Shown here: positions 7,812-54,459 of the stretch, piece after piece
Numbering within the stretch: position 1 is the stretch's first letter
How the letters are laid out: every line of letters begins with the position of its first letter
Notes under the pieces: model-generated
What the model was told of the DNA's origin: nothing
What the model saw: only the letters and a program-made list of their open reading frames with translations
Database searches by the model: none
Virus record (IMG/VR): IMGVR_UViG_3300037067_006044
Location: 37,565 to 101,564 of that record
DNA length: 64,000 bases
DNA from: a virus
Lineage: Duplodnaviria > Caudoviricetes
Strand: one strand, 5' to 3'
Position numbers and translations under genes: made by a program

Positions 7812-9965
7812 TTAAAAGTTAAATAAATTTTTAGTTGTTTTATAATTGTTATTGAATTTTAATTTAAATTCGTCTGAATCTAATATTTCAATTCCTAAAT
7901 CTATTGCTTTTTGTTCTTTACCACTCCCACTACCTTTATATTTTACAATTAGATATTTAACATTTTTTGATATTCCACTTTTAACTTCTCCTCCATTATC
8001 TATAATATATTTTTCCATTTCATCATCTCTAAATCCAGTAAATACAAATGATAACCCGGTTAAAGAACCTTGTTTAGGTTGGGAAATTGTTTGTGTTTTA
8101 ATATTAATAAACTGTTCAATTTCTTTATAAAACAAATTAAATTTATCAATGTTATTTAAATAATCATTAACTAATATATCAGATAATCCATTTATTTCAA
8201 TTAATTCTTTTAATGATGGATTTTGATTTTTAGATTCTAATATGTAATCATTAATAAGTTTTAATTTCTTACTACCAGATTTCTTAAAACATCCTGAAGC
8301 ATGTTGTAATGTACTTAAATCAACATCTTTTAATTTTTTGTGAATATTATTAAAAACTATTTCTGCTTTTCTATTTCCAAATCCTTCAAAAGTTTTTAAT
8401 TTATTAATATCTAATTGTAATACTTTTAAAATAGAATCATATCCTTCTTCATATAAAATTCTAAATGTACTTTCTTTTACTTCCTCTACTCCAATTGTAT
8501 CAAAAAAAGAACTAATTACTTTTATTCTTTGTTCTTTACAATTATTATGATTAGTACAAACAAGATGAGTTTCATTTTCATCCCATTTTAATTTAGTATT
8601 ACATGATGGACAATATTCTTTTAAAAAAGAATGATTTTTAATTTCTTCTTTTCTAATTTCAATTAATTTTTCGACTGCCAAATCATATTCTTTAGTAGAA
8701 TTATATAAATGTTTAAAAGGAATTTTATGTCCATTAACACTAATAATTTTAGGTATAACTTCTCCAGAACGAATAACTTCTATTTTAGTTCCTGGAAATA
8801 ATCCAAACTGAAAAACATTATTATAATTATTTAAAGTACAATTTTCTATTTTTGCACCACCAATAAAAACGGGATTAATTTCTCCGACTGGTTGAATATT
8901 TCCTCTTTTTGAAACTTCATCTACAATATTATTTAAAACTGTTTCATAAGCTGTTTCAAAGTTTCCTTTATAAGCAAATGAAAAATTTGGATTTCCTTCT
9001 TTATGAATTCCTAATTTATTTCTTAAATCAACTGAATTAATATCTATTACAATTCCATCACATTCATATTCAGAATTAAATTCATTATAAATATCATTTA
9101 ACAATTCTTCTGTTAATTCTGATATTTTGTGTTTTTTATATTGAACTTTTACATTGTTTAATTCATTACAAATATCTAATTGTTTGTCTTTATTGTATAT
9201 TTGTTTTCCTTCTAAATTAAAATGATTGTAACGAATATAATCACAAATAGTAATGTCTTTATTTACTTCATCTTTATTAATAAATCCAGATACAGTATTT
9301 CTTGCTGCCTTAGGAATATCAATTTTAGAATTTAATTTTTGTTCTTGTAATTTTCTTTCTTGATATTGTTTAAAATTTGATTTAGAAATAATAACTTCTC
9401 CCGAAGTATAACAATGGGATTCTGATAATTTATTATTTGATTTTTCAATTGTATTTAAATGTTCTGTAGAATTTCTACCATAATCAGAATCCCCTCTTGT
9501 CCATGATTTTAAACTTGTTTCATTTCTGAGTTGGGATAATCCATCATATTTAGGAGATAAAACTACATCAGTAGAAGTTGGAATATTATGTCTTTTACAC
9601 CAATTAAGAATATCATTTATAGATTTGAATTTATCTAATGATCCCATTATAATTGGAAGTTTTTCTTTTCTACTATCTTTATCACTTACATTATATCCAA
9701 TTTGGAAAAATGAATCATTTGGTTTAAAATCTTTTAATAATTCATAAACTACATCATATTCTTTATCAGTTACAATACTTTCTCCTGTTCTATATGAAAT
9801 ATTCCATTCTGTAAGATATGTTTTTAATTCATCTAAAAATTTATTCCATTCTTCTTTAGATGGGAGATTATTTATTTTATATGAATTTGTTAATTGATTA
9901 ATTATAATATCTAAATTATAATTACAATCTTTTATAAGTTTTAATAATATTTCTTGTGAATTCAT
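7812..9965 (-). CDS. ligA: NAD-dependent DNA ligase
   Basis: KYDG adenylation motif, WTRGD, GEV, DGIVI, RSGEVIP OB-fold, CPSC zinc finger, C-terminal BRCT (FVFTG...GGEV). Confidence 0.95.
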   Translation of the reverse strand: MNSQEILLKLIKDCNYNLDIIINQLTNSYKINNLPSKEEWNKFLDELKTYLTEWNISYRTGESIVTDKEYDVVYELLKDFKPNDSFFQIGYNVSDKDSRKEKLPIIMGSLDKFKSINDILNWCKRHNIPTSTDVVLSPKYDGLSQLRNETSLKSWTRGDSDYGRNSTEHLNTIEKSNNKLSESHCYTSGEVIISKSNFKQYQERKLQEQKLNSKIDIPKAARNTVSGFINKDEVNKDITICDYIRYNHFNLEGKQIYNKDKQLDICNELNNVKVQYKKHKISELTEELLNDIYNEFNSEYECDGIVIDINSVDLRNKLGIHKEGNPNFSFAYKGNFETAYETVLNNIVDEVSKRGNIQPVGEINPVFIGGAKIENCTLNNYNNVFQFGLFPGTKIEVIRSGEVIPKIISVNGHKIPFKHLYNSTKEYDLAVEKLIEIRKEEIKNHSFLKEYCPSCNTKLKWDENETHLVCTNHNNCKEQRIKVISSFFDTIGVEEVKESTFRILYEEGYDSILKVLQLDINKLKTFEGFGNRKAEIVFNNIHKKLKDVDLSTLQHASGCFKKSGSKKLKLINDYILESKNQNPSLKELIEINGLSDILVNDYLNNIDKFNLFYKEIEQFINIKTQTISQPKQGSLTGLSFVFTGFRDDEMEKYIIDNGGEVKSGISKNVKYLIVKYKGSGSGKEQKAIDLGIEILDSDEFKLKFNNNYKTTKNLFNF

Positions 9966-10120
9966 AAATTAAGTTTTAATTATATTTATCTATTCCATAT
10001 TTTTCTACAAATTTAATATGAGACAATTTCTTTAATTCTATGTCTTTATATAATCTATAAATTAAATATACTTTTGTCTTTAATATGTGAATTTTAATAA
10101 TGTCCATTTTATTATTTTTA

Positions 10121-10151
10121 CAAAGTTAATAATAAATTTTAAATAAACAAA
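10121..10151 (-). promoter_or_regulatory. Bacteroidota sigma70-type promoter
   Basis: TTTG-N19-TAACTTTG. Confidence 0.7.
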
Positions 10152-15758: not shown

Positions 15759-17453
15759 ATGGTAATTTGCAAAATTTGTAATGAAGAATTTGAAAATTAT
15801 GCTTTCTTATCTTCACACATTAGATTTAAACATAAAATGACTTCTTATGATTATAGTTTGAAATACGATTATAATGGAGAAATTCATAAATGTAAGTGTG
15901 GGTGTGGTCAAGAAACTAAATGGTTTAATATCAATATCGGTTTTTATGATTTTGTAAAAGGTCATGACAATACTTTTAGACATCAACAATTATTAATTAA
16001 AAAAGTTTGTATTATTTGTGGAACAGAATTTAAAACAAAAAATAAAGATAAAGTTATTTGCACTAAAAGAGAATGTTATCAAAAAGATTTATATAATAGA
16101 ACTCACGAAATAAGAACTTGTCCTTGTGGAGAAAAATTCGAATGTTCTAAAACATCACCTCAAATATATCATTCTTTTGAATGTAGTAGAAAAGACCCAG
16201 CAATGTGGGAAAAAATGAGACAAACATTAATTGAAACATATGGTGTTGACAATTATTCTAAAACAGAAGAGTTTAAAGAATGTGCAAGAGAAAATTCATA
16301 TTTTAAAACAGAGGAATTTCAAGTAAAAGCTAAGAAAACAAAAGAAGAACGATATGATGATGAAAATTATAATAATAGACCAAAAGCAGTAAATAGTAAT
16401 TTAAAATTTTATTTTAATAATTTATTTACTTCTGATAGATTAAAGAACTTGGTTACTCCATTATTTACTATTGATGATTATAAAGGAGTAGATAAAATAT
16501 ATCAATTTAAATGTAATAGATGCGATAATATATTTGAATCCAATTTATTTCATATTCCAAGATGTTTAGAATGTTTTCCATTTAAAAAAAATACATCTGA
16601 AGGAGAGATTGAATTATTTAATTATATTAAATCATTAATTCCAAATGAAAATATTATACAAAACGATATAAAAACATTACCAAATAATTTAGAAATTGAT
16701 ATATATATTCCTAATTTAAATATTGCATTTGAATATAATGGAATATATTGGCATAGTGCAAAATTTAAAAATTATAATTATCATAAATGGAAATATGAAA
16801 AATGCAAAGAACAAAATATTCAATTAATTCAAATATTTGAAAATGAATGGATTTTTAAAAAAGAAATTGTAAAGTCAATTATTAAAAACAAATTAAAATT
16901 AATAAAGAATAAAATATATGCGAGAAAATGTGAAATTAAAGAAATAAATAGTCAAGAATCAAATAGTTTTTTATTTGATAATCATATTCAAGGAATAGTA
17001 AACACACAATATAAATTCGGATTATTTTATAATGACAAATTAATTTCATTGATGACAATTGGAAAATCAAGATTTGATAAAAAATATGAATATGAAATAA
17101 TACGATTCTGTAATAAAATAAATTATTCTATTATTGGTGGATTTAATAAACTTTTATCTTATTTCATTAAAACATATAATCCAAATTCTATAATCAGTTA
17201 TGTTGATAAAAGATATTTTACTGGGAATATGTATAATCAAACAGATTTTAAATTAATAGAATCATATAATAAACCAAATTATTTTTATTTTAAAGGATAT
17301 GAAATGTATAATAGAATTGAATTCCAAAAACATAAATTAAAAGATAAATTAGAAATATACGATGAAAATCTAACAGAATGGCAAAATATGGAATTAAATG
17401 GATATAATAAAATTTATGATTGTGGAAATTTTAAATATGTCTGGGAAAAATAA
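15759..17453 (+). CDS. Hef-like free-standing homing endonuclease (Zn fingers, PD-(D/E)xK/DUF559-like nuclease, C-terminal domain)
   Basis: C2H2 and CKCGCG fingers; EIDIYIP...AFEYNGIYWHS; KIYARKC...NHIQG...YDCG. Confidence 0.85.
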   Translation: MVICKICNEEFENYAFLSSHIRFKHKMTSYDYSLKYDYNGEIHKCKCGCGQETKWFNINIGFYDFVKGHDNTFRHQQLLIKKVCIICGTEFKTKNKDKVICTKRECYQKDLYNRTHEIRTCPCGEKFECSKTSPQIYHSFECSRKDPAMWEKMRQTLIETYGVDNYSKTEEFKECARENSYFKTEEFQVKAKKTKEERYDDENYNNRPKAVNSNLKFYFNNLFTSDRLKNLVTPLFTIDDYKGVDKIYQFKCNRCDNIFESNLFHIPRCLECFPFKKNTSEGEIELFNYIKSLIPNENIIQNDIKTLPNNLEIDIYIPNLNIAFEYNGIYWHSAKFKNYNYHKWKYEKCKEQNIQLIQIFENEWIFKKEIVKSIIKNKLKLIKNKIYARKCEIKEINSQESNSFLFDNHIQGIVNTQYKFGLFYNDKLISLMTIGKSRFDKKYEYEIIRFCNKINYSIIGGFNKLLSYFIKTYNPNSIISYVDKRYFTGNMYNQTDFKLIESYNKPNYFYFKGYEMYNRIEFQKHKLKDKLEIYDENLTEWQNMELNGYNKIYDCGNFKYVWEK

Positions 17454-19170: not shown

Positions 19171-20979
19171 ATGAAATGTAAATTTTGTCAAGAAGAAATT
19201 AAAGAAGGAAAAGAATATTGTAATAGAACATGTTTTAATAATCACAGAAAAGAATTATATTATAAAATTGTAAAATGTTTAAATTGTACTAATACAATAC
19301 AAATAAAAAAAACAAATAATCATACTAAATTCTGTTGTAATAATTGTAAAAAAGAATTTGCAAATAAACAATATAAACACAAAAAAATATGCAAAAACTG
19401 CAGCAGAGAATTTGAATTATATAAATCAGAAACATTGATATTTTGTTGTCATGCTTGTAGATGCGAATATGATAGAAAACAATTTAGAGAAGACAGAATT
19501 TGTAAAAAATGTGGAAACACATTTAACACATTTAAAAGTAGTGATCAAGAATTTTGTACTCATGAATGTTATATTGAATATATAAAAGAAATAACAAAAA
19601 TAAAATATGATACAGAATTTTCAAATTGTTTATTATGTGGAGAAAAAATAAGATTAAATGAAAAATTTTGTTGTAAGGCACATAAAGAAAAATATTATTC
19701 ACAAAAAAGCAGAGAAATAAGAATATGTGAATGTGGTAGAGAATTTGAAGTGTATAAAAAAGATTCAAAATTTTTATGTTCTGATGAATGTCAAAAAAAA
19801 TATATTCTAAAACCAGAAGTTTTGGATAAGATAAAAGAAAAACGTGCAATCACTTCTAATTTCAATAATTATAATGCAAGAATAGACAAAATAAAATCTT
19901 TAAATTTATTTGATTTTGATTGTTCGGAAGAAGAGTATAAATCCAATAAAAATATTAAATTAAAATGTAAAAAATGTGGATATGAATTTGAAGAAAAAAT
20001 TAATTTAAATCATTTGCCAAGTTGTATAAAATGTAATCCTATTCCATATATATTATCTAAACCAGAAGAAGAATTAAGTGATTATATACATTCTATAATA
20101 AATAAAAATATAATAGAAAATAAAAGAACAATTATAAGACCTTTAGAATTAGATTTTTATCTACCAGATTATAATTTAGCTATTGAATTTGATGGTTGTT
20201 ATTGGCATAGTGAAATTCATGGACATAAAGATAAAAAATATCATATTAATAAAACTAAAATGTGTGAATCCCAAGGAATTCAATTAATTCATATATTTGA
20301 TGATGAATGGACAAATAAAAAAGAAATAATTAAAAACACAATAAAACATAAATTAAATTTAAATAATACAGATAAAATATATGCAAGAAAATGTATAATT
20401 AAAGAAATAAATTCAAAAACAAAAAATACATTTTTAAATAATAATCACATTCAAGGAGAAGATAAAAGTAAAATTAAACTCGGATTATTTTATAATGATG
20501 AATTAGTTGCAGTCATGACTTTTGGAAAATTGCGATTAGCATTAGGAAATAAAACATCTAATATTAATGAATATGAGTTAATAAGATTTGCAACATCTAA
20601 AACAATTATTGGTGGATTTAGTAAATTATTGTCTTATTTTATTAAAACATATAATCCAATTAAAATAACAACTTATGCTGATAAAAGATGGAGTAATGGA
20701 AATGTTTATATTAAAAACGGATTTAATCTTATACATGAAACTCAACCAAATTATTGGTATATGAAAAATTATAGTATTAGAGAACATAGATTCAAATATA
20801 GAAAATCAGAATTACCTAAATTATTAACAAATTATAATTCGGAATTAACTGAATGGGATAATATGCAATTAAATGGATATGATAGAATTTGGGATTGTGG
20901 TTCATTAAAATTTGAAATGAATATCTCTCAACTTAATACTTCTGATAAAAATAATATTAACAAGCTATTCGAATTTTAA
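19171..20979 (+). CDS. Hef-like free-standing homing endonuclease, paralog of 15759-17453
   Basis: Many CxxC...FCxxxC treble-clef repeats; ELDFYLP...AIEFDGCYWHS; KIYARKC, NHIQG, WDCG; ends KLFEF. Confidence 0.85.
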   Translation: MKCKFCQEEIKEGKEYCNRTCFNNHRKELYYKIVKCLNCTNTIQIKKTNNHTKFCCNNCKKEFANKQYKHKKICKNCSREFELYKSETLIFCCHACRCEYDRKQFREDRICKKCGNTFNTFKSSDQEFCTHECYIEYIKEITKIKYDTEFSNCLLCGEKIRLNEKFCCKAHKEKYYSQKSREIRICECGREFEVYKKDSKFLCSDECQKKYILKPEVLDKIKEKRAITSNFNNYNARIDKIKSLNLFDFDCSEEEYKSNKNIKLKCKKCGYEFEEKINLNHLPSCIKCNPIPYILSKPEEELSDYIHSIINKNIIENKRTIIRPLELDFYLPDYNLAIEFDGCYWHSEIHGHKDKKYHINKTKMCESQGIQLIHIFDDEWTNKKEIIKNTIKHKLNLNNTDKIYARKCIIKEINSKTKNTFLNNNHIQGEDKSKIKLGLFYNDELVAVMTFGKLRLALGNKTSNINEYELIRFATSKTIIGGFSKLLSYFIKTYNPIKITTYADKRWSNGNVYIKNGFNLIHETQPNYWYMKNYSIREHRFKYRKSELPKLLTNYNSELTEWDNMQLNGYDRIWDCGSLKFEMNISQLNTSDKNNINKLFEF

Positions 20980-21353: not shown

Positions 21354-22220
21354 ATGTCTCAATCATTATTCGTTCACACCAATAAAATATCTTTAGATAA
21401 ATATTATACTCCAATTGAGAAGTCTCAAGAATTAATTGAATTTACTCTTAATTTTATTGGAAGGAATAAGATAGATACAATAATAGAACCAAGTGCCGGA
21501 AATGGTTCATTCTCAAATTATCTTTTCAACACTTATTCGAACATTTATAAAATTCATGCATTCGATATAAAACCAGAAGAAGGAAGAATAAAGGAACAAG
21601 ATTTCTTAAAGATTACTAATTTTAGGTATAATGATAAATGTCTTATTATTGGAAATCCTCCATTTGGAGAAAACAAGAATCTATTAACACAATTTTTTAA
21701 TAAGAGTATTTTATTATCTGAATATATTGCTTTCATTCTCCCAATTTCATATCTTAATAATAGTAAATCATTTTTTTATTATGATTTGATAAGTAGTAAG
21801 GATTTAGGATTAATGAATTATTCTGATAGAGAATTGACTTGTTGTTTTAATATTTATAAAAGACCTATTTCCGGAAGTTTAAATAAATTAAAAAGTAATA
21901 AAATAGATTTTATAGAAATTAAGCAAGAGAAATATAATCATCTTTCTTCTTATGATTTTCGAGTTCAAAGATTAGGAGAAAATATTGGAAAAGTAGTAAA
22001 AGAAAAAGAAATAAAAAGTTATTATGCAATTAAGATACATTCAGATGATAATGAATTAAAAGAAAGAATTAGATTGATTTTTGATAGTTATGATTGGATG
22101 AGTGTAAAACAATTTATTTCGATTCCATATCTTACTATTACTGATATTTATGATGTTTTAAATGAAGAATTAAAATTAGATACAAAAGATAATAAAACAG
22201 ATAAATTATTTGAATTTTAG
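21354..22220 (+). CDS. N6-adenine DNA methyltransferase (gamma-type motif order)
   Basis: YYT, IEPSAGNGSF (motif I), GNPPF (motif IV). Confidence 0.88.
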   Translation: MSQSLFVHTNKISLDKYYTPIEKSQELIEFTLNFIGRNKIDTIIEPSAGNGSFSNYLFNTYSNIYKIHAFDIKPEEGRIKEQDFLKITNFRYNDKCLIIGNPPFGENKNLLTQFFNKSILLSEYIAFILPISYLNNSKSFFYYDLISSKDLGLMNYSDRELTCCFNIYKRPISGSLNKLKSNKIDFIEIKQEKYNHLSSYDFRVQRLGENIGKVVKEKEIKSYYAIKIHSDDNELKERIRLIFDSYDWMSVKQFISIPYLTITDIYDVLNEELKLDTKDNKTDKLFEF

Positions 22221-22225: not shown

Positions 22226-23155
22226 ATGATAGAAAATTATATAAATAAATTATTTTGCAAAGACAATTTAGAGTTATTAAAAGAACTTCCTAACAATAGT
22301 ATCGATTTAATTTATTCAGATATTCTTTATGGAACCGGAGTTAAGTTTGATGATTATCAAGATTTAAAGATAAATATAAAAGAGAAGTTAATATTTGATA
22401 TTATTCCAGAGACTATTTATAATCATTATTGGATTAGATTAATTGAGATGAAGAGAATATTAAAAGATACTGGAAGTATTTATCTTCAAATGGATACAAG
22501 AATAAATCATTGGATAAGAATAATGATGGATATGATTTTTGGATATAATAATTTTCACAATGAGATAACTTGGAATTATAGATTTAGTCCTGTTTCATCT
22601 TCTCATTTTTCAAAAGCACACGATATAATTTTATTTTATTCTAAATCAGATACTTATACATTTAATAAAATAAATCATTTATTTGATAGTTCAGAAAGAA
22701 CAAAATCAGATTGGTTAAAATTTGCAGATGAAAACGGAAATGTTTTAATGAAAGATTTGCCATCATCTTTAAAAAATTCGTCTATATTTATTCGTAGCGG
22801 TAGAAAAGATGGTGATGTCGGATTTAATTGTTTAAATGGAATACCAATTGATTGGTGGGAAATACCGACATCTGTTAGAGGAAATAATCCAGAAATAAAA
22901 CACGGAAAATACAATACTCAAAAACCAGAAAGATTATTAGAAAGAATAATTCTTGCAAGTAGTAATGAAAATGACATTGTTTTAGATTTATATATGGGAA
23001 GTGGGACATCAATGGTTGTTGCTAAGAAAAATAATAGAAAATGGATTGGATGTGATATAAATTCAAAGAGTATTGATTTAACAAATTTAAGATTGAATGA
23101 TATTGAAGATAAATCAAAACAAATAGAACATAAAAATAAATTATTTGAATTTTAG
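22226..23155 (+). CDS. beta-class N4/N6 DNA methyltransferase with DILY in motif IV
   Basis: IDLIYSDILY, TQKPERLLERII, VLDLYMGSGT. Confidence 0.88.
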   Translation: MIENYINKLFCKDNLELLKELPNNSIDLIYSDILYGTGVKFDDYQDLKINIKEKLIFDIIPETIYNHYWIRLIEMKRILKDTGSIYLQMDTRINHWIRIMMDMIFGYNNFHNEITWNYRFSPVSSSHFSKAHDIILFYSKSDTYTFNKINHLFDSSERTKSDWLKFADENGNVLMKDLPSSLKNSSIFIRSGRKDGDVGFNCLNGIPIDWWEIPTSVRGNNPEIKHGKYNTQKPERLLERIILASSNENDIVLDLYMGSGTSMVVAKKNNRKWIGCDINSKSIDLTNLRLNDIEDKSKQIEHKNKLFEF

Positions 23156-23170: not shown

Positions 23171-24523
23171 ATGATAGTTACAACAAATAATATATTCAAT
23201 CAATTAAAATCTGAAATAGATATTTATTCTAATTTCATTATTCTTCCTATTTTAGAAAATCATCTATTATTAAGATATAAGAATAATTTACTTTTATTAT
23301 ACATTTGTATTTTAGATGATAATTTCAATATTGTAAATAAGTATATTTTAAACATAAATCATTTAGATATTTTCTTTAAATGTAATATAGATGAATTAGA
23401 TTTTACAAATAAGAATCTATACACAAATGATAAGAAATGTCTTACTTTCTTTTTATCTTGTACTAATATATATGAATTGCAGATAGTTGATAAGAATGTA
23501 AATTTCAATAGGAAAACACTGGATTTAAACAATACATTCAATCTTCATCATTCTAAGAAATCATATAATAAAATATTACCATTAACTCATCACATTGAAT
23601 ATTTAGAACAAGAATTTCAGTATTATTATGATTTATTAATAGAAAATAAAACAAGAATAAAGGATAAAGATTTCTTATTTTACAATAATATTATTTCCAC
23701 TCTTTATAAGATAGAAAGTGAAGGAATATGTATAAATAAAGAATTGTTTAAAGAAATAAATAAAGATAAGTTACAATATCATTTAAAAGATTCATTTGAT
23801 AATTATGTATATTGTGATTATAATATTTATACTTCTACAGGAAGGACTTCTAATTCATATGGAAGAATAAATTTTAATGCGTTAAATAAAAAAACAAATG
23901 AAAGAGAAATAATAGTTAGTAGATATGGAAAAGAAGGAATGTTGATTGAATTTGATTATTCTGCATATCATCTTTCAATATTAGCAGATTTAATACAATA
24001 TAAATTTCCAGATAATATAAAGAGTATTCATGATTATTTAGGAAAACAATATTTTAATGTAGAAGAATTAAGTAAAGAACAATATAAAGACACAAAAATA
24101 TTAAATTTTCAATTTTTATACGGAGGAATACCAGATGATATAATTGATAATATTGAATATTTTAAAAAAGTTAATATTTATTTAAAACTATTATATAAAG
24201 AATATTTAGAAAATGGATTTATTGTTTCTCCTATTTCAAATAGAAGAATAGATAATGTAGAAAATCACAATGCAAATAAAGTATTAAATTATTTATTGCA
24301 AATGTTAGAAACTGAAATAACTACTAATAATATTTCTAATGTAATGAATAAAATAAATAATAAAAAAATACATTCAATACTTTATGTTTATGATTCTATT
24401 TTATTTGATATTCATAAATCAGAATTAGAATTTATGGAAAATATTAAAACAATTTTATCAGAAAATAATAAATTTATCATAACAACTAAATATTCCGAAA
24501 CAAATTATAAAGATATTAAATGA
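23171..24523 (+). CDS. compact family-A DNA polymerase
   Basis: TSTGRTS, EFDYSAYH (motif A), KILNFQFLYGG (motif B), NYLLQ, YVYDSILFD (motif C). Confidence 0.85.
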   Translation: MIVTTNNIFNQLKSEIDIYSNFIILPILENHLLLRYKNNLLLLYICILDDNFNIVNKYILNINHLDIFFKCNIDELDFTNKNLYTNDKKCLTFFLSCTNIYELQIVDKNVNFNRKTLDLNNTFNLHHSKKSYNKILPLTHHIEYLEQEFQYYYDLLIENKTRIKDKDFLFYNNIISTLYKIESEGICINKELFKEINKDKLQYHLKDSFDNYVYCDYNIYTSTGRTSNSYGRINFNALNKKTNEREIIVSRYGKEGMLIEFDYSAYHLSILADLIQYKFPDNIKSIHDYLGKQYFNVEELSKEQYKDTKILNFQFLYGGIPDDIIDNIEYFKKVNIYLKLLYKEYLENGFIVSPISNRRIDNVENHNANKVLNYLLQMLETEITTNNISNVMNKINNKKIHSILYVYDSILFDIHKSELEFMENIKTILSENNKFIITTKYSETNYKDIK

Positions 24524-25443
24524 TAGAAAATTATATAAATAAATTATTTTGTAAAGATAATTTAGAATTATTAAAAGAACTTCCTTCCAATTCTATTGAT
24601 TTGATTTATGGTGATATTTTGTATGGAACTGGAAAAGATTGGAAGGATTATAAAGATATAAATAGCAATGAAACAGAAGTCAATACTTTTTATTATGAAC
24701 GAATAAAGGAGATGAAAAGAGTATTAAAAGAAACTGGCTCTATTTATCTTCAAATGGACACAAATATCAATCATTATATTAAATTAATGTTAAATAAAAT
24801 CTTTGGAAATAAAAACTTTAGAAATGAAATAATTTGGAAAAGAGGTAATTCAAGTGGATTTAAAACTCAATATAATGGATTTATTAAAAATCATGACATA
24901 ATTTTATTTTATTCTAAATCAGACAAATATTTATTTAATAAATTAAAATATGATGAATATAATGGGTTTTACAATAGATGGAAAAAATATAGTTTAGATA
25001 ATGAAACAATAACATATATTAATTTTCCTAAGTCAGATAAAAAATGGCTTAATTCATTAATAGAAAAATTTAAAAAAGAAAATAATAGAGAACCATTAAA
25101 TAATGATATACTTTATAGATTTAATTCTACATATATAGAAGACATTTGGACAGATATATCTGACATTGCTTATGGTTCAAAAGAAAAAATTGATTATGCA
25201 ACTCAAAAACCAGAAAAATTATTAGAAAGAATAATTCTTGCAAGTAGTAATAAAAATAATATTGTTTTGGATTGTTTTCTCGGAAGTGGAACTACAATCG
25301 TTGTTTCTGAAAAATTGAATAGAAAATGGATTGGTATAGATATAAATCAAAAAAGTATTGAAATAACAAATGAAAGATTAAACAATATAAATACACACCA
25401 AATAAAAATAAAAGAAAAACTTAATAATATATTTGAATTTTAA
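24520..25443 (+). CDS. beta-class N4/N6 DNA methyltransferase with DILY in motif IV, paralog of 22226-23155
   Basis: IDLIYGDILY, YATQKPEKLLERII, LDCFLGSGTT. Confidence 0.88.
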   Translation: MIENYINKLFCKDNLELLKELPSNSIDLIYGDILYGTGKDWKDYKDINSNETEVNTFYYERIKEMKRVLKETGSIYLQMDTNINHYIKLMLNKIFGNKNFRNEIIWKRGNSSGFKTQYNGFIKNHDIILFYSKSDKYLFNKLKYDEYNGFYNRWKKYSLDNETITYINFPKSDKKWLNSLIEKFKKENNREPLNNDILYRFNSTYIEDIWTDISDIAYGSKEKIDYATQKPEKLLERIILASSNKNNIVLDCFLGSGTTIVVSEKLNRKWIGIDINQKSIEITNERLNNINTHQIKIKEKLNNIFEF

Positions 25444-41332: not shown

Positions 41333-41389
41333 AAAATTATATATTAAATTAAATAATTATTTTTAATTTGATTGATAATTGTTGTTCTA

Positions 41390-47302: not shown

Positions 47303-47544
47303 ATTATAATTTTAAATCATAAATTCTTATAATATGAGTTTATGATTTTTTATTTAAATAAACATATGATTTATAAAAATAAAAACAAACGATATAGAAT
47401 AAGAGTTTCACTTGATAATTTTGAATATATAATTCAATTTAGAAATTGTTTTAGTTTAATTTGGAAAACTATATTTTTAAATAATTATTACTCATCTTTT
47501 GAAGAAGCTGAAGATGAAATTAGATTATTAATTAAAAAATAAAT

Positions 47545-47886: not shown

Positions 47887-47900
47887 TAAAAAATATAGAA

Positions 47901-48533
47901 ATGGCAAAGCAATTATCTCAACTTCAAAAAGCATATCAATTATTTTTTAGACAAAAGTTATTAAAATATCATGTTACATCTCCTGCAAAAATTAAAGACA
48001 AAGAAAAGAAAAAAGAGTTTTTTAATGAAGTTAAAAATGATTGGCAGAAAAGAAGAAATAGAACTGTAGATAAAGAAAAAATAAAAGGTAAATATTATAA
48101 TCAATATATTAGATGTATTAAAAGACGATTTAATATTCCAAAAGGAAATCTTGAAAGTGGTATGTTAGTAGAGTTAAGATATTATACAAGAAATAAAACA
48201 ACAAAGAAACCAAATCCAGTTAGAAAATATCTTGTTCTTATTCTTCATCCTAATTATAAAAAATATATTCATTGTCTTAGACTTGATAATGTTAAACCTT
48301 TATTCTTTAAAAGATTATATGAAAAGACCGGAATAGTTACTTGTGATTATAATTCTAAATGTGAAAGATTAAATGTAAAACAATTATTGTTAGAACAGAA
48401 AGATGCTAAAAAATTCTATATAAAAGAATTAAGACCTAAAATGAAATTACAATTTGGAAAATCATACCGAACTTTTAAGTATAGTCAGTTGAGAATCTCA
48501 TCTTTGTATTTTTTCGATTTCACAAAGATATAA
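47901..48533 (+). CDS. basic late protein, possibly DNA end-protector-like
   Basis: K/R-rich; TATATTTATA upstream at 47876-47885; weak resemblance only. Confidence 0.45.
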   Translation: MAKQLSQLQKAYQLFFRQKLLKYHVTSPAKIKDKEKKKEFFNEVKNDWQKRRNRTVDKEKIKGKYYNQYIRCIKRRFNIPKGNLESGMLVELRYYTRNKTTKKPNPVRKYLVLILHPNYKKYIHCLRLDNVKPLFFKRLYEKTGIVTCDYNSKCERLNVKQLLLEQKDAKKFYIKELRPKMKLQFGKSYRTFKYSQLRISSLYFFDFTKI

Positions 48534-48543
48534 CTAATTAAAT

Positions 48544-48789
48544 ACGAAAGAAATAGAACAATATCAACCAGTAATAGATTTTTTATTAAAGAATGATTTT
48601 AATAGAACAGAATTTCTTTTTAATAATTCTAAATGTGAAGTTCAAATAAAAGAAAATTATTATATTGTTGAATTTTTTCTCAAGGAAATAAATGATTTTG
48701 TCTATATCTTATCTAATGATTTAAATATTTATTGGTTAATTGGAGTTCTAACTTGAAATGAATTAATCGATAAAAATTATAAGAAATAA
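48544..48789 (+). pseudogene. decayed small gene (ACG start, internal TGA)
   Basis: Open frame (T)KEIEQYQ...WLIGVLT*NELIDKNYKK*. Confidence 0.55.
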
Positions 48790-48911
48790 AATTTAAAATT
48801 TAAATATTTTTTGTTTTTAATCTTCCAATTTTATTGAAAAATAAGTTGGAAGATTTTTGTTTTTATACTGTATAATTTTTATATTTTTAAAATAATTCAA
48901 TTAAGTAATTT

Positions 48912-49541
48912 ATGAATATATCATATGCAATAACAGTTTGTAATGAAGATAAGGAATTAGAATCTCTTCTCAATCTTCTACATAATCATATAACCGAAGA
49001 AGATGAAATAATTATTCTTTCTGATTTACATAATACAGCAAAAGAAGTATTAGATATTATACAATTCTATTCAGAAAATTATAATCTTGTAAAACATTTT
49101 AAAAGAAGTCTTAATAAAGATTTTGCTTCTCAAAAGAATTTCTTATTTGATTTATGTGAAAAAGATTATATATTTAATATTGATGCAGATGAATTACCAA
49201 ATGTTTATTTATTAGAAAATATCAAATCTATATTAGATAAAAATAATACTGTTGAATTATTTATCCTTCCTCGTGTCAATATTGTTAATGGAATTACAAA
49301 AGAATATATAACAAAAATGAGATGGAATGTTAATGAAAAAGGATGGATAAATTGGCCTGATTCTCAACAAAGAATAAGTAAGAATAATGATAAAATAAGA
49401 TGGAATGGTAAAGTACATGAAAGATTAATTGGATATAATAATGTCGCCAATTTTCCATTAGATGAAAAATTTTGTTTATATCATATCAAAGAATTTAAAA
49501 AACAAATAGAACAAAATAACTTTTATTCAACTATAAAATGA
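48912..49541 (+). CDS. family 2 glycosyltransferase
   Basis: ISYAITVCNE, FASQKN, IDADE, WPD.Q.R, VHE. Confidence 0.9.
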   Translation: MNISYAITVCNEDKELESLLNLLHNHITEEDEIIILSDLHNTAKEVLDIIQFYSENYNLVKHFKRSLNKDFASQKNFLFDLCEKDYIFNIDADELPNVYLLENIKSILDKNNTVELFILPRVNIVNGITKEYITKMRWNVNEKGWINWPDSQQRISKNNDKIRWNGKVHERLIGYNNVANFPLDEKFCLYHIKEFKKQIEQNNFYSTIK

Positions 49542-49691
49542 CAATAGACGAAATTAAACAAGAAATAAATAACTATGAATCAAATTTAAATTCTGATATA
49601 GATTATTTAAAATATAAATTAAAACAAAAAGATAATATTAAATTATCAACTCAAATTATTTTATTAGAAACATTATTTAATTTAAATTAAA

Positions 49692-50009
49692 ATGAAACAA
49701 TTAAAATTTATAACATTATCAATAATCATTCTACTAATTTCATCTTGTTGTAATTGTGGCGGTGAATTAATAGATAGAAAATATGAAAAATGTATTATTA
49801 CTGAATTAGGTTCTCATGCAAAGCATTCATATATTAAATTCAAAATAATAAATAATAATGTAGAAGTATATAAAAGCATAAGATATCCTGATTTTAAAGT
49901 TTGTATTGGACAAAATGTGGAATTATTAATTTATACTTATAAGAATGATAAAAATGAATATGAATATAGAACAGATGATAAGGAAGTTTATTTAAAATTA
50001 TTAAACTAA
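49692..50009 (+). CDS. putative lipoprotein
   Basis: Signal peptide ending LLISSC (lipobox-like). Confidence 0.6.
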   Translation: MKQLKFITLSIIILLISSCCNCGGELIDRKYEKCIITELGSHAKHSYIKFKIINNNVEVYKSIRYPDFKVCIGQNVELLIYTYKNDKNEYEYRTDDKEVYLKLLN

Positions 50010-50035
50010 AATATATTTATAATTAAAAAAATTAA

Positions 50036-50557
50036 ATGAAAGAAGATAAATATAAAGGATGTTTAATGGTTTCTTTTGATATTCCAAATTGGTCATTCTA
50101 TCTTGGAAATCTAATCGAACCAAATGATGTATATTCAGAATATAAAAATGGAGAAGAAGATAAAGGCATTCAACTTAAAACTCCTCATTGCACGATTTTG
50201 TATGGAATTTATAATGATGTTCAACAATCGGATTTATTGAGATATTTATTACCTCTTCAATCTATTCCAGTTAAATTTGGAAATATTACAATATTTGAAA
50301 ACAATAATTTCGATGTTGTTAAAATGGATGTTAAAAGTGAAGAACTGAATAAAATTAATAGAAATATAATTAATAATATTCCTTATAGTAGTAGTTATAA
50401 AGTATATAAAAGTCATGTAACTTTAGGATATGTTAAAAAAGGAACTGGACAGAAATATCTAAGAACAAATAATAAACCATTCATTCTATATCCTAATTCT
50501 TATTGGTTTACCAATCCGGTTAAAGGAATAGATGAACATTTTGAAATTTATAATTAA
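50036..50557 (+). CDS. 2H phosphoesterase, T4 57B/Acb1-like
   Basis: Two HxT motifs: PHCTILYG and SHVTLGY. Confidence 0.8.
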   Translation: MKEDKYKGCLMVSFDIPNWSFYLGNLIEPNDVYSEYKNGEEDKGIQLKTPHCTILYGIYNDVQQSDLLRYLLPLQSIPVKFGNITIFENNNFDVVKMDVKSEELNKINRNIINNIPYSSSYKVYKSHVTLGYVKKGTGQKYLRTNNKPFILYPNSYWFTNPVKGIDEHFEIYN

Positions 50558-50920
50558 TAATGGAAGAAGAGAACTATTTTAATAATTTATTAAAATTATT
50601 AATAGAAAAGACAAGAAAATATACAGATGACAAAGTTATTCCGATTGTAGATGATTTTATAAATAAACACCCAGATATTTTAAATAAGTATGAAAGAGAA
50701 TTTCTATATATAATATAATGATGAGTTTGATAGAAGAATTAGAAATATTTATAATTGAAAATAATATTAGTCAAATAGAAGCAATGATAGAAATAAAAAA
50801 TAATAATATTAATATTTTATCATATAAAAGAATTGAAACAAATTTAGAAGAATTAAAATATAAATATGAAATTATTCATTTAACAGTTAATAAAAAGATA
50901 CCATTTATAAAATCAAAACA

Positions 50921-51172
50921 ATGATAGAATTTTACATATTACTTCAAAACGACAATATTAATAATCTAAATGATGGAAATCTATTAGGTACTCTCAATAC
51001 TAAACAATTAACATTTTGGTTAGGAGATGGATTTAAAGCTCTTACTAATATTATAGATAAAAACCCAGAAATAATGAAAGAAATTAAAATTATTAATAGT
51101 AATAAAAAGGAATATTCAGTTAATGATTTTCTTCTTTTAATTGAAACTATGAAAATAAAAAACACTTTTTAA
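50921..51172 (+). CDS. hypothetical protein
   Basis: 83-aa ORF. Confidence 0.6.
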   Translation: MIEFYILLQNDNINNLNDGNLLGTLNTKQLTFWLGDGFKALTNIIDKNPEIMKEIKIINSNKKEYSVNDFLLLIETMKIKNTF

Positions 51173-51512
51173 TTATGGAAACTCAAGAATTAGACCAAAT
51201 AATTATAAATCAAGGAAAAATAATAGAATGTGAACATCTATTATTAAAATGTGAAAATGAAGAACAAAGAAATTATTTAAATAAAAGAATTAAAATATTA
51301 AATTATATAATCAACTGGTATAGAAAAACTTTTAAAGATGAAAACAATCAAAAGAAATATTATTAAAGAAAAGAAATATTTAATCAATATTGAAAATGAA
51401 ATATCAAAAGATTATATTATTCAGTTAGAAGATAAATTAAATAATATAATTAAAACAAAATCACTTCAAGATAAAATTAAAAATAATAATAAACCTAAAG
51501 AAGTATAAAGTT

Positions 51513-51977
51513 ATGACATACAAACAATTATTTGAATTATTACCAAAATTAGATTCTCTTAAAAATCTAACAGGAGCACAATTTGCATATACTGTCATTT
51601 ATAATAAAAAACTAATAAATGAAGAATATAAAATATATGAAGAAATGATTAAACCAATGGAATCTTATCTTCAATATGATAAAGAAAGAGTTGAAATATG
51701 TATGAAATATTCTGATAAAGATGAAAATAATAAACCTATTATTAATAATAATGCTTTTCAAATTACTCAAAATTTAGATGATTTTAAATCTGAATTAGAA
51801 TTATTAAATAATAAATATTCAGAAGCTATTAGAATTACTAATGAACAGAATAAAAGTGTTTCTGAATTTCTTACTAAAGAATGTGATACTCAATTTAAAA
51901 TTATTTCTAATAATTCCTTACCTAAAGATATTTCAGTTGAACAATTGGAAATTATTATGGATTGGATTGTCGATTAA
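51513..51977 (+). CDS. hypothetical phage protein
   Basis: 154-aa ORF. Confidence 0.75.
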   Translation: MTYKQLFELLPKLDSLKNLTGAQFAYTVIYNKKLINEEYKIYEEMIKPMESYLQYDKERVEICMKYSDKDENNKPIINNNAFQITQNLDDFKSELELLNNKYSEAIRITNEQNKSVSEFLTKECDTQFKIISNNSLPKDISVEQLEIIMDWIVD

Positions 51978-52503
51978 AAATATAAAAATATAATAACTTC
52001 AGACTTATTAGTTTTTTATAAATTCCAATATTTATTATACCAATTCTGTTTTAGAGCATTTTTGGATTAAAACTACTAAGACTGATTTGTTTATTGTTAA
52101 AATGATTAATAATTATCTACTTTATAAAGACGTTATTAAAATTAAAAATGAAGAAGATTTAAAACATATTTATTTTCTGGTTAATGATGAAAAATTATAA
52201 ATTAAAAATACTGATATATAAAATTGCTTTTCCTTTCTGTAATATCAGATTTAAAAATGGAAAAGATTTCAATTCATTTGTTTTTATAATGGATATGATG
52301 TTTTGGAGTGCAATTCTTATGTTATTAGCTTATTTTATTCTTCAACTCAGTTAGGATAAATCCATACCAAAAAACAATTCAAATATCACAATAACACAAT
52401 GTAGATAATTGAAGAAACTGAGATAGAATGTATTAAACTCTAATCTATAAAATTTAGGTTAGAGTTTTTATTTTATATATTTTAAATAAAATTTAAATAT
52501 TAT

Positions 52504-54459
52504 ATGCTATTAGCTTTAAATGATAAAAATGAATTAATATCTCCAATAAAAACAGGAGAAAGAGCAATTGACCCATTTTCTAAAACAGAAGTTATTTCTA
52601 AAGTAGGAACATTGAATATTCCTCATTGGGCATTAAAATCTAATGTTGAGTATGATAATTGGTATGAGCCAATGACAGAATGGCATTATAATTGGCAATT
52701 AAAAATGAAATCTTTAGGAGCTAAATTAGAAGTTATTTTAAAAAATGATAATACAGGTGAAAAACATATAGCAGATTGTATGTTTGATAATGGAATTATT
52801 GTTGAGGTGCAACATTCCAATATTAAATTAGAAGAAATATCTATACGAGAAGATTTTTATGGTATTAATTTAGTTTGGATTTTAGATGGAGATAAATTTT
52901 TTAAATTAGAAGAAGATGAAGATTATAGTGATTTCGGATTATTTGTTAAAATAAAATCAAAATCAATATCACAAATAAAAAGAAGTATTTATATTGATTT
53001 TGATTATTATACTGATAGATTATATAAAATAATATCTAATGGGGTTAAATATTCAAAATATAATACATATGAACTAAAAATTGTATCTAATATTTTAGAT
53101 GATATAAATGAAATAAATAATTATTTTTATAAAGAAACAAACATAGACATTATTAATTTCATTTTAATTAAACTGCCGTATTTAAATATAGATAAATGGA
53201 TATTAAATGAATATTTAAATCATAATTATATATATTGCTATTATGATGATTTTGTTGGTAAAATATATGTTATTCATGGAATAAATGAAAATTGGAAAAC
53301 AGATAATATATACCGATTAACTTTTAAATTTGTATTTGGTCACTTTAATATTGAAAACTATAATAATTTAGATATAAACATAACCAAATCAAAAAAAATG
53401 GATTTATTTTATACCGATTATTATTACAATAATTGTTTTAATGACATAAATAATATAAATACAATTACGCACTTAAATTTATCCAATAATATTGATAAGT
53501 TAGACATATTAAATTTAAAAAATTTAATTTATTTAAATTTACAAGATAACAAAAATTTAAATATTAAATCATTGTTTTTTATTTTGAACAAATTCAATAA
53601 AAATATTATTATATCAACAAATCAATATATAACAAATATTAATAATGATTTAGTAGTAATATTACCACAATTACAATTAATAGACGAAAATATAAATTAT
53701 TTAATTAATCTGATAGTTTTAGATTTGTATAATAATAAAATATATGATATTTGTAATAATATTTGGAAATGTGATAATTTACAAACATTAAATTTAAGTC
53801 ATAATAATATAGAATTTTTTAATATTGATATTTGCAATTCAAAATTAAAACATTTAAATTTAAGTAATAATGCTTTAAAATTAATATCGTCTAATATAAA
53901 GTATTTATCCAGTTTAGAATATTTAGAATTAAGATATACGGATTTAGAAACATTACCAACAGAAATAAACACACTTAATAATTTGTCCATTATCGATTTA
54001 AGATATAATAAACAATTAAATATAAATTCAATTTTAAATATATTCCAAAATTATAATAAATTAATTAAAATTACTAATTACGAACAAAAAATTGAAATAA
54101 TTGATAATGTATTAACAATTATTATTGATTCTATAAAAAATATAGATATTGAAATATGTAATATTAAAAATCTAAGTATTTTAAAATTGCATTATATCAA
54201 GTTATATACTATACCAATAGAATTATTTAATTTACACAATTTAAAAATTTTAAATCTAAATCATTCAGATATAAGTATATCAGTATTAAAATATATAGAA
54301 CAAAAAATTAAAACCAAAATTGAATATTGTAATGATGATACTGATATTATTGATAATGATAAATTAAAAATAATAATAACAAACAAAAATCATTATAATC
54401 TAATTAATAATATTTTACCTGTAAATCATAAAAAAACAATAGATTTCTTTAAATTTTAA
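52504..54459 (+). CDS. CoiA-like PD-(D/E)xK nuclease fused to leucine-rich repeats
   Basis: HW...EPMTEWH..WQ, HIAD, VEVQHS, REDFY, WILD; repeated LxxLNLSxN units. Confidence 0.8.
   Translation: MLLALNDKNELISPIKTGERAIDPFSKTEVISKVGTLNIPHWALKSNVEYDNWYEPMTEWHYNWQLKMKSLGAKLEVILKNDNTGEKHIADCMFDNGIIVEVQHSNIKLEEISIREDFYGINLVWILDGDKFFKLEEDEDYSDFGLFVKIKSKSISQIKRSIYIDFDYYTDRLYKIISNGVKYSKYNTYELKIVSNILDDINEINNYFYKETNIDIINFILIKLPYLNIDKWILNEYLNHNYIYCYYDDFVGKIYVIHGINENWKTDNIYRLTFKFVFGHFNIENYNNLDINITKSKKMDLFYTDYYYNNCFNDINNINTITHLNLSNNIDKLDILNLKNLIYLNLQDNKNLNIKSLFFILNKFNKNIIISTNQYITNINNDLVVILPQLQLIDENINYLINLIVLDLYNNKIYDICNNIWKCDNLQTLNLSHNNIEFFNIDICNSKLKHLNLSNNALKLISSNIKYLSSLEYLELRYTDLETLPTEINTLNNLSIIDLRYNKQLNINSILNIFQNYNKLIKITNYEQKIEIIDNVLTIIIDSIKNIDIEICNIKNLSILKLHYIKLYTIPIELFNLHNLKILNLNHSDISISVLKYIEQKIKTKIEYCNDDTDIIDNDKLKIIITNKNHYNLINNILPVNHKKTIDFFKF

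What the first reader, a model, noticed from the sequence alone, without database searches (positions are those of the whole stretch)
7812..54459. Shared C-terminal [LIF]F[ENK]F tag on six unrelated DNA-acting enzymes
Seen: ligase ends KNLFNF, endonuclease 19171-20979 ends NKLFEF, the three methyltransferases end DKLFEF, NKLFEF and NNIFEF, and CoiA-LRR ends IDFFKF. Each tag follows a low-complexity linker beyond the catalytic domain. The paralogous endonuclease 15759-17453 lacks it. Known: T4/RB69 proteins dock on the gp45 sliding clamp through hydrophobic C-terminal peptides (RB69 polymerase ends LFDMFDF). Inference: a phage clamp or replisome-docking signal that recruits methylases for co-replicative protection and has been picked up by a homing endonuclease.
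Basis: partly seen in the sequence, partly recalled or inferred. Interest (0 to 1): 0.75.

Follow-up and report, generated by a model that had tools for sequence, protein, structure and literature searches.

The report
Polymerase-like clamp-docking tails on phage enzymes
A very AT-rich giant phage has added the same short tail (…Leu-Phe-Glu-Phe) that related phages' DNA polymerases carry at the site where T4-type polymerases grip the sliding clamp to its DNA methyltransferases, its DNA ligase and a homing endonuclease, so these enzymes probably ride the replication clamp and act on new DNA as it is copied, although binding has not been measured.

Summary
All six C-termini read as stated, and the paralogous endonuclease lacks the tail. 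Two more tagged methyltransferases lie on the same 101.6-kb virus record, outside the window. The motif [LI]F[EN]F occurs 8 times in 29,437 residues, 7 of them at a C-terminus (about 0.04 expected).

The tail is an add-on behind a polar linker of variable length. None of 119 ligase homologues has it. Synonymous codons differ between copies, so selection acts on the peptide.

An exact DNA scan for KLFEF-stop found ten T4/RB69-type family-B polymerases ending NKLFEF. The next gene in four of them is a sliding clamp. A related phage (G001, 173.7 kb) has nine to ten methyltransferase genes ending ΦFxF. They surround a split-intein polymerase ending NFFGF, a clamp (fold pLDDT 95, PCNA TM about 0.8; profile hits RB69 and T4 gp45) and a gp44-like clamp loader.

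The best reading is a clamp-docking peptide that copies the polymerase tail (confidence 0.7). The window's own record is only 36% complete and holds no polymerase or clamp. Binding was not tested.

This scan has noted the same theme in at least 28 other phage genomes. I found no paper describing it. Interest is 0.6: a new variant of a known kind.

The parts
7812..9965 (-). NAD-dependent DNA ligase (LigA type, 717 aa). A 13-17 aa add-on follows the BRCT domain and ends KNLFNF (tag codons 7815-7832).
   Evidence: Pfam finds adenylation, OB, Zn and BRCT domains, with BRCT at residues 635-700. None of the 119 homologues listed carries the tail, and the nearest (42-43% identity) end just after BRCT.
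19171..20979 (+). Homing/HNH-type endonuclease (602 aa) with a 15-21 aa add-on ending NKLFEF (tag codons 20959-20976).
   Evidence: phrog_3339 homing endonuclease, E 2e-113; the match ends at residue 584. Weak Pfam hits to REase_MTES_1575, a treble clef and Mom. The tail is absent from the paralogue.
15759..17453 (+). Untagged paralogue of the endonuclease (564 aa). It serves as an internal control.
   Evidence: 39% identity over 523 aligned positions; it ends ...FKYVWEK at the point where the tagged copy's tail begins. Same PHROG family.
21354..22220 (+). Gamma-type (motif I before NPPF) DNA methyltransferase, 288 aa, ending DKLFEF (tag codons 22200-22217).
   Evidence: phrog_799 DNA methyltransferase, E 1.5e-19. 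The motifs EPSAGNGSF and NPPFG are visible in alignment A1. The G001 orthologue (56% identity) ends SKHFEF.
22226..23155 (+). Beta-class N6/N4 DNA methyltransferase (PF01555), 309 aa. A 19-23 aa polar linker is followed by NKLFEF (tag codons 23135-23152).
   Evidence: PF01555, E 1e-41, domain ends at residue 286. The G001 orthologue (65% identity) also ends NKLFEF.
24520..25443 (+). Beta-class N6/N4 DNA methyltransferase (PF01555), 307 aa, ending NNIFEF (tag codons 25423-25440).
   Evidence: PF01555, E 6e-47, domain ends at residue 285. Its homologue P0303 in contig L064 ends NNLFNF.
52504..54459 (+). CoiA-like nuclease plus LRR protein (651 aa) ending IDFFKF (tag codons 54439-54456). A probable but weaker member.
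   Evidence: LRR_8 and LRR_4 at about residues 402-505. CoiA_nuc scores 19.5 bits at window 52687-52917, just under the cut-off. The tail resembles polymerase tails such as NFFGF, NFFSF and EFFDF.

Best explanation
The tag is a clamp-interacting peptide that copies the C-terminal tail of the phage's own T4/RB69-type replicative DNA polymerase.

A flexible polar linker of about 0-20 residues presents a tip, [N/K/D]-[K/N/E]-Φ-F-x-F-COOH. The tip is proposed to insert into the hydrophobic pocket of a phage gp45/PCNA-type trimeric sliding clamp. Clamps left on freshly copied duplex DNA would then carry the enzymes along it:
- The methyltransferases (three sequence classes) would modify the DNA before host restriction enzymes can cut it.
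- The NAD-dependent ligase would seal nicks, as T4 ligase does through an internal LDFLF loop.
- A homing endonuclease, and possibly a CoiA-like/LRR nuclease, would be delivered to replicating DNA.

Shown: the tag and its enrichment; its add-on nature; its identity with polymerase tails; and the clamp, clamp loader and polymerase in the related phage G001.

Inferred: binding itself; that this genome encodes the same type of clamp; and the biological purpose.
For: (a) The tag is enriched at C-termini about 150-fold or more over its rate anywhere in the proteome.

(b) It is an add-on. None of the 119 LigA homologues listed has it. The endonuclease paralogue lacks the last 21 residues. Linker length in the beta-class methyltransferases varies from 0 to about 14 residues while the tip stays invariant.

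(c) Synonymous codons vary between copies.

(d) An exact scan of IMG/VR for KLFEF-stop gave ten family-B polymerases of about 885-907 aa ending ...NTFNKLFEF. Their best solved relative is RB69 gp43 (E 1e-61). In G002-G005 the gene right after the polymerase matches the clamp profile (E 1e-8 to 7e-11).

(e) In the relative G001 the region from about 41 to 59.5 kb holds nine to ten methyltransferase genes or gene pieces ending NKLFEF, SKHFEF, NRLFEF, NYFNFK, SSIFKF, KYFNF, KYFDF, DKFVF and QNLFQF. The same region holds a split-intein PolB whose C-extein ends NQNFFGF. It also holds a clamp (profile hits RB69 gp45 1b77 at E 2.6e-7 and T4 gp45 at 2.8e-6; AF2 pLDDT 95; PCNA TM 0.75-0.83) and a clamp loader (phrog_168, E 9e-66).

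(f) 13 of the 15 polymerases nearest to G001's end in NKLFKF, NFFSF, EFFSF, EFFDF..FF or ..LF. In contig L067 the polymerase (NKLFKF), the clamp and the gp44-like loader are adjacent.

(g) Other AT-rich relatives carry the tag on further DNA enzymes. L064 has a TGT/DpdA-like protein ending NSLFGF and a methyltransferase ending NNLFNF. G006 has an endonuclease-like protein ending NDLFEF.

(h) Literature. T4 gp43, gp55 and gp33 share interchangeable 'hydrophobic and acidic' C-terminal clamp-binding tips on divergent linkers of variable length (PMC2988020). The RB69 gp43 tail binds a hydrophobic pocket of gp45 (PMC3012046). T4 ligase binds gp45 through LDFLF, and the gp43 tail is EKASLDFLFG (PMC6212786).
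Against: No binding has been measured or modelled.

The window's record (36% complete by CheckV) holds no recognisable polymerase, clamp or AAA+ clamp loader. The partner is therefore inferred from relatives that share only 17 of 153 proteins by BLASTP.

Some orthologues lack the tag. An L064 methyltransferase 58% identical to G000 28445-29194 ends without it, the L064 gamma-type methyltransferase also lacks it, and the C5 methyltransferases of L067 are untagged. The tail is therefore dispensable.

The motif is not a canonical PIP box (no Gln, and the aromatics are not adjacent), nor the beta-clamp motif QL[SD]LF.
Confidence: 0.7

Rival explanations
1. The tail docks on the host's beta-clamp (DnaN) rather than on a phage clamp, as bacterial Pol II, Pol IV, MutS or LigA clients do.
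For: Many metagenomic homologues of the window's methyltransferase end in ...LF (NKLF, QQRLF, ENLF), which looks like the QL[SD]LF type. One related polymerase ends QLSLF. The record has no clamp gene of its own.
Against: The ΦFxF tip is the tail type of polymerases that are encoded next to gp45/PCNA-type clamps. G001 encodes its own clamp and loader inside the tagged array. The tag has no Gln-Leu start.
Confidence: 0.1
2. The tail targets another hub or compartment. Candidates are a replication-factory or phage-nucleus import receptor, the helicase/primase or SSB, or a packaging signal that loads the enzymes into capsids for injection.
For: Nothing measured excludes it. All tagged proteins act on DNA, which any replication-compartment signal would also explain.
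Against: The same tail sits on the replicative polymerase, exactly where T4/RB69 polymerases carry the clamp-binding peptide (PMC3012046). No tubulin- or nuclear-shell-type genes were seen in the parts annotated.
Confidence: 0.12
3. The tail is a C-terminal degron: a protease-adaptor tag that limits the lifetime of DNA-acting enzymes.
For: Hydrophobic C-terminal tags are used by ClpXP-type systems (general knowledge). The tagged enzymes could harm the host or phage if they persisted.
Against: A degron on the essential replicative polymerase across a whole clade is unlikely. No protease or adaptor gene was linked to the tagged genes.
Confidence: 0.04
4. Chance or common descent: a 21% GC genome is rich in F, K, N, L and E, and the methyltransferases are paralogues that inherited one tail.
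For: GC is 21%. F, K, N, I and L are 5-11% each. The beta-class methyltransferases are paralogues.
Against: Seven of the eight occurrences in the proteome are terminal (P about 1e-11). At least four unrelated families carry the tail. It is absent from all ligase homologues and from the endonuclease paralogue. Linkers differ while the tips are kept, and codons differ between copies.
Confidence: 0.02

Closest known systems
C-terminal gp45-clamp-binding tails of T4/RB69 gp43 polymerase, gp33 and gp55
   Same: Position at the extreme C-terminus. A divergent linker of variable length. A short hydrophobic/aromatic tip with an acidic residue. The same tip is shared by the polymerase and by functionally different clients. 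The clamp is gp45/PCNA type with a gp44-type loader (PMC2988020, PMC3012046).
   Different: The clients here are DNA methyltransferases of three classes, an NAD-dependent ligase, a homing endonuclease and, in relatives, a TGT/DpdA-like enzyme, rather than transcription factors. The consensus is ΦFxF-COOH rather than LDFLF(G). Binding is untested.
T4 DNA ligase binding gp45 through an internal LDFLF loop (PMC6212786)
   Same: A phage ligase is tethered to the phage clamp by a polymerase-like hydrophobic motif.
   Different: Here the ligase is the NAD-dependent LigA type, and the motif is a C-terminal add-on after BRCT, not a loop within the NTase domain.
Eukaryotic DNMT1-PCNA coupling through a PIP box (general knowledge, not checked with a tool here)
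   Same: The concept is the same: a DNA methyltransferase rides the sliding clamp so that methylation follows the fork.
   Different: The tag is not a canonical Qxx[LIM]xx[FY][FY] box. The enzymes are phage N6/N4-type rather than a maintenance C5 enzyme. Many methyltransferases share one tag.
Bacterial beta-clamp-binding motif QL[SD]LF (Pol II, Pol IV, MutS, LigA, transposase TnsE)
   Same: A short hydrophobic peptide, often terminal, recruits diverse DNA enzymes and even mobile-element proteins to a clamp (PMC9690074 and PMC5371812 appeared in searches; only their abstracts were read).
   Different: The consensus and clamp type differ. No dnaN was found in this or the related phage records.

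Membership tests
T4/RB69-type C-terminal clamp-binding peptides (PIP-like) | Lies at the extreme C-terminus, beyond the catalytic domains, on a flexible linker of variable length | tested here: met
   Domain ends against protein ends. Linkers of 0 to about 14 residues with an invariant tip. Tails are absent from homologues and from the paralogue.
T4/RB69-type C-terminal clamp-binding peptides (PIP-like) | The tip resembles the tail of the cognate replicative polymerase | tested here: inconclusive
   Met in the relative G001 (polymerase NFFGF, methyltransferases ΦFxF). The tip is identical to the NKLFEF tails of ten gp43-like polymerases. This genome's own polymerase is not on the 36% fragment.
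T4/RB69-type C-terminal clamp-binding peptides (PIP-like) | [quoted passage not shown] | tested here: inconclusive
   Present in G001 and in L067. Not found in G000. The weak 'clamp loader' PHROG hit at window 4249-5205 was not confirmed.
T4/RB69-type C-terminal clamp-binding peptides (PIP-like) | Physical binding to the hydrophobic pocket of the clamp | not testable with these tools
It needs ITC, pull-down or co-folding.
Canonical PIP box Qxx[LIM]xx[FY][FY] | A Gln at position 1 and two adjacent aromatic residues at positions 7-8 | tested here: not met
   Tails read e.g. K-N-K-L-F-E-F. There is no Gln, and the aromatics are separated by one residue. It is PIP-like in role only.
Bacterial beta-clamp-binding motif QL[SD]LF / QLxLxL | A Gln-Leu start and a Leu-Phe end; the partner is DnaN | tested here: not met
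   No tag has a Q-L start. No PF00712 match in G000 or G001. The host clamp was not examined.
PF01555 N6/N4 DNA methyltransferases (beta class) | A Pfam match above the gathering score that covers the catalytic domain | tested here: met
   137-161 bits for the four G000 enzymes.
NAD-dependent DNA ligase LigA | Adenylation, OB, Zn-finger and BRCT domains in order | tested here: met
   The Zn finger scores 23 bits, slightly under its cut-off of 25.8.

The most novel reading that the evidence does not exclude
The phage sliding clamp acts as a general plug-in tool belt for genome defence. Any DNA-acting enzyme that acquires the polymerase's few-residue tail is coupled to the fork. This covers methyltransferases of three classes, a DpdA-type base-exchange enzyme, ligase and nucleases. 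The whole modification arsenal then works co-replicatively, the tail type co-evolves with the resident clamp (ΦFxF here, ..LF in other lineages), and selfish homing endonucleases have hijacked the same tail to reach replicating targets.
Probability: 0.45. Interest if true: 0.75.

Novelty: new variant of a known kind. Interest (0 to 1): 0.6.

Why it matters
If the tails bind the clamp, phages would have a DNMT1-PCNA-like answer to a timing problem: how to modify each new genome copy before host restriction enzymes see it.

It would also explain how large arsenals of orphan methyltransferases are made effective. It gives a simple sequence rule (tail equals polymerase tail) for predicting clamp clients in uncultured phages. 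It would add methyltransferases, a DpdA-type enzyme, a LigA-type ligase and a homing endonuclease to the client list of gp45-type clamps.

The idea can be tested directly with peptides and Phe-to-Ala mutants.

Tried and rejected
- **Ligase scan.** A scan of IMG/VR for close relatives of the ligase found none.
- **Pfam clamp families.** PF00712, PF02916 and PF00705 gave nothing in G000. PF00712 and PF02916 gave nothing in G001, and PF02916 gave nothing in G002-G005. These clamps are too divergent for those models, and the G001 clamp was only recognised through a profile of 100 homologues.
- **Candidate clamp loader in the window.** Window 4249-5205(-) gave a weak PHROG 'clamp loader' hit (E 5e-4). 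I rejected it as evidence: it has no AAA or Pfam support and no similarity to the true G001 loader.
- **Neighbouring ORFs.** ORFs next to the ligase and other 180-310 aa ORFs gave no clamp.
- **Clamp HMM on G000.** Run on the six frames of G000, its best hit was E 0.13 in a coiled-coil ORF, which is noise.
- **Single-sequence fold.** The single-sequence fold of the G001 clamp failed (pLDDT 33). It was redone with the alignment.
- **Direct PDB searches.** phmmer against PDB with the G002 post-polymerase ORF and with the KLFDFS-tailed 561-aa protein of G005 gave nothing.
- **Contigs that did not help.** The P0122 contig was too short. The L064 record is not held, so its polymerase tail could not be read. 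The contigs of the LF-tailed polymerases P0401 and P0402 hold no methyltransferase, so co-variation of tail type between polymerase and methyltransferase was not tested beyond G001.
- **Complex prediction.** No complex of clamp and tail was modelled, and no verdict exists.
- **SSB idea.** I guessed that G000 21397-21735(-), which ends EEDDLPF, is an SSB. Pfam did not support this.

Full report
**Setting.** The window is bases 37,565-101,564 of a 101,564-bp linear IMG/VR virus record (G000). CheckV puts it at 36% complete, and GC is 21%. Recognisable genes mark it as part of a very large, AT-rich phage. They include an intein-containing ribonucleotide reductase, a DnaB-like helicase, a T4 Rnl1-type RNA ligase, thymidylate synthase, a primase-helicase-like protein, a LigA ligase, many DNA methyltransferases and an amidase.

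**The observation.**
- The tagged proteins in the window are:
  - a LigA-type ligase with adenylation, OB, Zn and BRCT domains;
  - a homing/HNH-type endonuclease (phrog_3339, E 2e-113);
  - a gamma-type methyltransferase (phrog_799; motif I followed by NPPF);
  - two beta-class PF01555 methyltransferases;
  - an LRR protein with a sub-threshold CoiA-nuclease match.
- Two further PF01555 methyltransferases on the same record, outside the window, end KNKLFEF and NELFEFN.
- In 153 ORFs (29,437 residues), [LI]F[EN]F occurs eight times. Seven of these are at a C-terminus, against 0.04 expected (P about 7e-12). The looser ΦF.F gives 7 against 0.21.
- AT-rich composition alone therefore does not explain the pattern.

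**The tail is an add-on under selection at the protein level.**
- None of the 119 ligase homologues listed (down to about 24% identity) has the tail. The closest (42-43%) stop a few residues after BRCT, where the window's ligase continues with 13 more residues ending KNLFNF.
- The endonuclease paralogue 15759-17453 aligns at 39% identity up to its last residues. It ends where the 21-residue tail of 19171-20979 begins. The PHROG profile also ends before the tail.
- Among the methyltransferases, the stretch between the end of the catalytic domain and the tip varies from 0 to about 14 polar residues, while F-E-F is invariant.
- Codons for the tip differ between copies. This argues against a DNA or RNA signal and against recent copying.

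**What else carries this tail.** An exact scan of IMG/VR for the DNA encoding KLFEF-stop returned 37 loci.
- Most matches are short chance frames.
- Ten are ORFs of about 885-907 aa ending ...NTFNKLFEF.
  - The three scanned with Pfam are family-B polymerases (PF00136, PF03104).
  - One was searched against solved structures; its best solved relatives are RB69 and T4 gp43 (E 1e-61).
- This is the position where T4/RB69 polymerases carry the gp45-binding peptide. PMC3012046 describes the RB69 tail (residues 883-903) bound to a hydrophobic pocket of gp45 (PDB 1b8h). PMC6212786 gives the T4 tail as EKASLDFLFG.
- One further hit (L007) is a 65%-identical orthologue of the window's methyltransferase 22226-23155. 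It lies on a 173,677-bp record (G001; GC 22%, 72% complete).

**The relative G001.** G000 and G001 share only 17 proteins by BLASTP, but these include the tagged methyltransferases at 52-65% identity.
- Between about 41 and 59.5 kb, G001 has nine to ten methyltransferase genes or gene pieces of the beta, gamma and D12 classes. They end NKLFEF, SKHFEF, NRLFEF, NYFNFK, SSIFKF, KYFNF, KYFDF, DKFVF and QNLFQF.
- A family-B polymerase split by an intein lies inside this array.
  - The 741-aa piece has the exonuclease and palm domains plus the intein N-half.
  - The 346-aa piece starts with the intein C-half and continues with the polymerase C-terminal region.
  - The 741-aa piece's best solved relative is RB69 gp43 (E 7e-47).
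  - The C-terminal piece matches the C-terminal part of the NKLFEF polymerases at E 1e-13 to 2.5e-16.
  - It ends NQNFFGF.
- A 232-aa ORF (G001 55,614-56,312) has no Pfam hit but 432 homologues.
  - A profile of 100 of them hits RB69 gp45 (1b77/1b8h, E 2.6e-7) and T4 gp45 (E 2.8e-6).
  - With that alignment AlphaFold gives pLDDT 95 and pTM 0.91.
  - All listed Foldseek hits are PCNA (TM 0.71-0.83, E about 1e-13).
  - It is a sliding clamp.
- The 316-aa gene at 58,514-59,464 is a gp44/RFC-type clamp loader (phrog_168, E 9e-66).
- The clamp profile also hits the ORF directly downstream of the NKLFEF polymerases in G002-G005 (E 1e-8 to 7e-11).

**Polymerase tails in the clade.** Of the 15 full-length polymerases nearest to G001's C-extein, 13 end in an aromatic tip: NKLFKF, NFFSF, EFFSF, EFFDF..NFF..DFF..SFFG, KKLF and QLSLF. 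In a 168-kb ENA contig (L067) the polymerase (NKLFKF), a clamp (profile E 1e-40) and a gp44-like loader are consecutive genes.

**More clients in other AT-rich relatives.**
- L064 (28.6 kb, GC 21%) carries a methyltransferase ending NNLFNF and a D12 methyltransferase ending KLFKLK.
- It also has a gene set that suggests 7-deazaguanine DNA modification (PTPS, radical SAM, GTP cyclohydrolase I). Within it, a TGT/DpdA-like protein (PF01702, 29.5 bits) ends NSLFGF.
- G006 (43.8 kb) has a 530-aa protein 87% identical to one of G000's. It also has an endonuclease-like protein ending NDLFEF and a 255-aa protein ending TELFEF.
- The tag is not universal. An L064 methyltransferase 58% identical to G000 28445-29194 lacks it, and the C5 methyltransferases of L067 are untagged.

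**A wider pattern.** Among the 120 best homologues of methyltransferase 22226-23155:
- 68 end with the catalytic domain;
- 10 have tails ending ΦFxF, and these include most of the closest relatives;
- about 21 have tails ending ..LF;
- 20 have other tails.

Added hydrophobic tips are thus recurrent in this enzyme family, and the type of tip changes between lineages. This scan's earlier notes report the same theme (tails KLF, LW/LF, FW, DMF[D/E]) in at least 28 other phage genomes, and on the neighbouring window of this genome. These are unchecked AI notes, and I do not count them as evidence.

Five literature searches of the held library turned up no paper describing clamp-binding tails on phage methyltransferases, and a read of the sliding-clamp and PCNA passages of the jumbo-phage comparative review PMC7824862 found no mention of them.

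**Mechanism proposed.** The tail is a clamp-interacting peptide modelled on the polymerase tail.
- T4 gp43, gp33 and gp55 share interchangeable hydrophobic and acidic C-terminal tips on divergent linkers (PMC2988020).
- T4 ligase binds gp45 through a polymerase-like LDFLF motif (PMC6212786).
- Here the same logic would attach the modification enzymes, the LigA ligase and a homing endonuclease to clamps on newly made duplex DNA.
- Binding, the presence of the clamp in this genome and the protective purpose are all inferred.

**Limits.** G000 is a fragment without a polymerase, clamp or confirmed loader.

**Verdict.** It is a new variant of a known kind, namely T4-type clamp-binding tails on a new and broad set of clients. 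Confidence in the clamp-docking reading is 0.7, and interest is 0.6.

Noticed in passing
window 40058-41332 (-): A 424-aa protein whose C-terminal half matches the catalytic domains of PARP1 and PARP2 (E 2e-10 against PDB; phrog_23333 'polymerase'). It is a phage-encoded PARP-like ADP-ribosyltransferase.
   Followed up: partly
window 43125-44717 (+) and 58295-59884 (+); G001 6519-8096, 127734-129218, 131006-132289; G006 39987-41579: A multi-copy family of about 530 aa with no Pfam or PHROG hit. Copies are 55-87% identical between phages, and almost all end ...K[VS]xLY[ST]F. The family may be mobile, and its ΦYxF end could be another variant of the docking tail.
   Followed up: partly
L042:7195-11666 (G001 47195-51666): The family-B DNA polymerase is split within an intein. 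The N-extein plus intein-N (741 aa) and the intein-C plus C-extein (346 aa) are separated by a free-standing 366-aa ORF. This suggests a split intein or an intein broken by an inserted gene. L067 shows a comparable three-piece polymerase.
   Followed up: partly
L001:14904-19325 (G000, outside the window): A 1473-aa ribonucleotide reductase large subunit carrying an intein with a LAGLIDADG homing endonuclease.
   Followed up: no
L064:3894-17695: A related AT-rich phage contig carries PTPS (QueD-like), radical SAM (QueE-like), GTP cyclohydrolase I, glycosyltransferases and a TGT/DpdA-like gene. This suggests 7-deazaguanine DNA modification. The TGT-like protein carries the ΦFxF tail (NSLFGF).
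   Followed up: partly
P0279-P0386 (homologues of window 22226-23155): About a fifth of the 120 closest metagenomic PF01555 homologues have short added tails ending in Leu-Phe (NKLF, ENLF, QQRLF, CDLF). This is a different tip type on the same enzyme family.
   Followed up: partly
L002:1397-1735 (-) (G000 21397-21735): A 112-aa ORF ends EEDDLPF, which resembles the acidic C-terminal tip of bacterial SSB. Pfam gave only coiled-coil-like noise, so no SSB assignment is made.
   Followed up: partly
L062:2522-4207 (G005 42522-44207): In one of the phages whose polymerase ends NKLFEF, a 561-aa protein of unknown family two genes downstream of the clamp ends KLFDFS. It may be another clamp client.
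   Followed up: no
window 30800-31417 (-) and 25702-26643 (-): A peptide-deformylase-like protein (phrog_2890, matching its first ~100 of 205 residues) and a ParB-like protein (phrog_1033). Both are untagged.
   Followed up: no
L044:216-1616 (G001 80216-81616): A 466-aa glycosyltransferase (phrog_2170) ends KFKLYKF. If it acts on DNA, it could be a further tagged modification enzyme.
   Followed up: no
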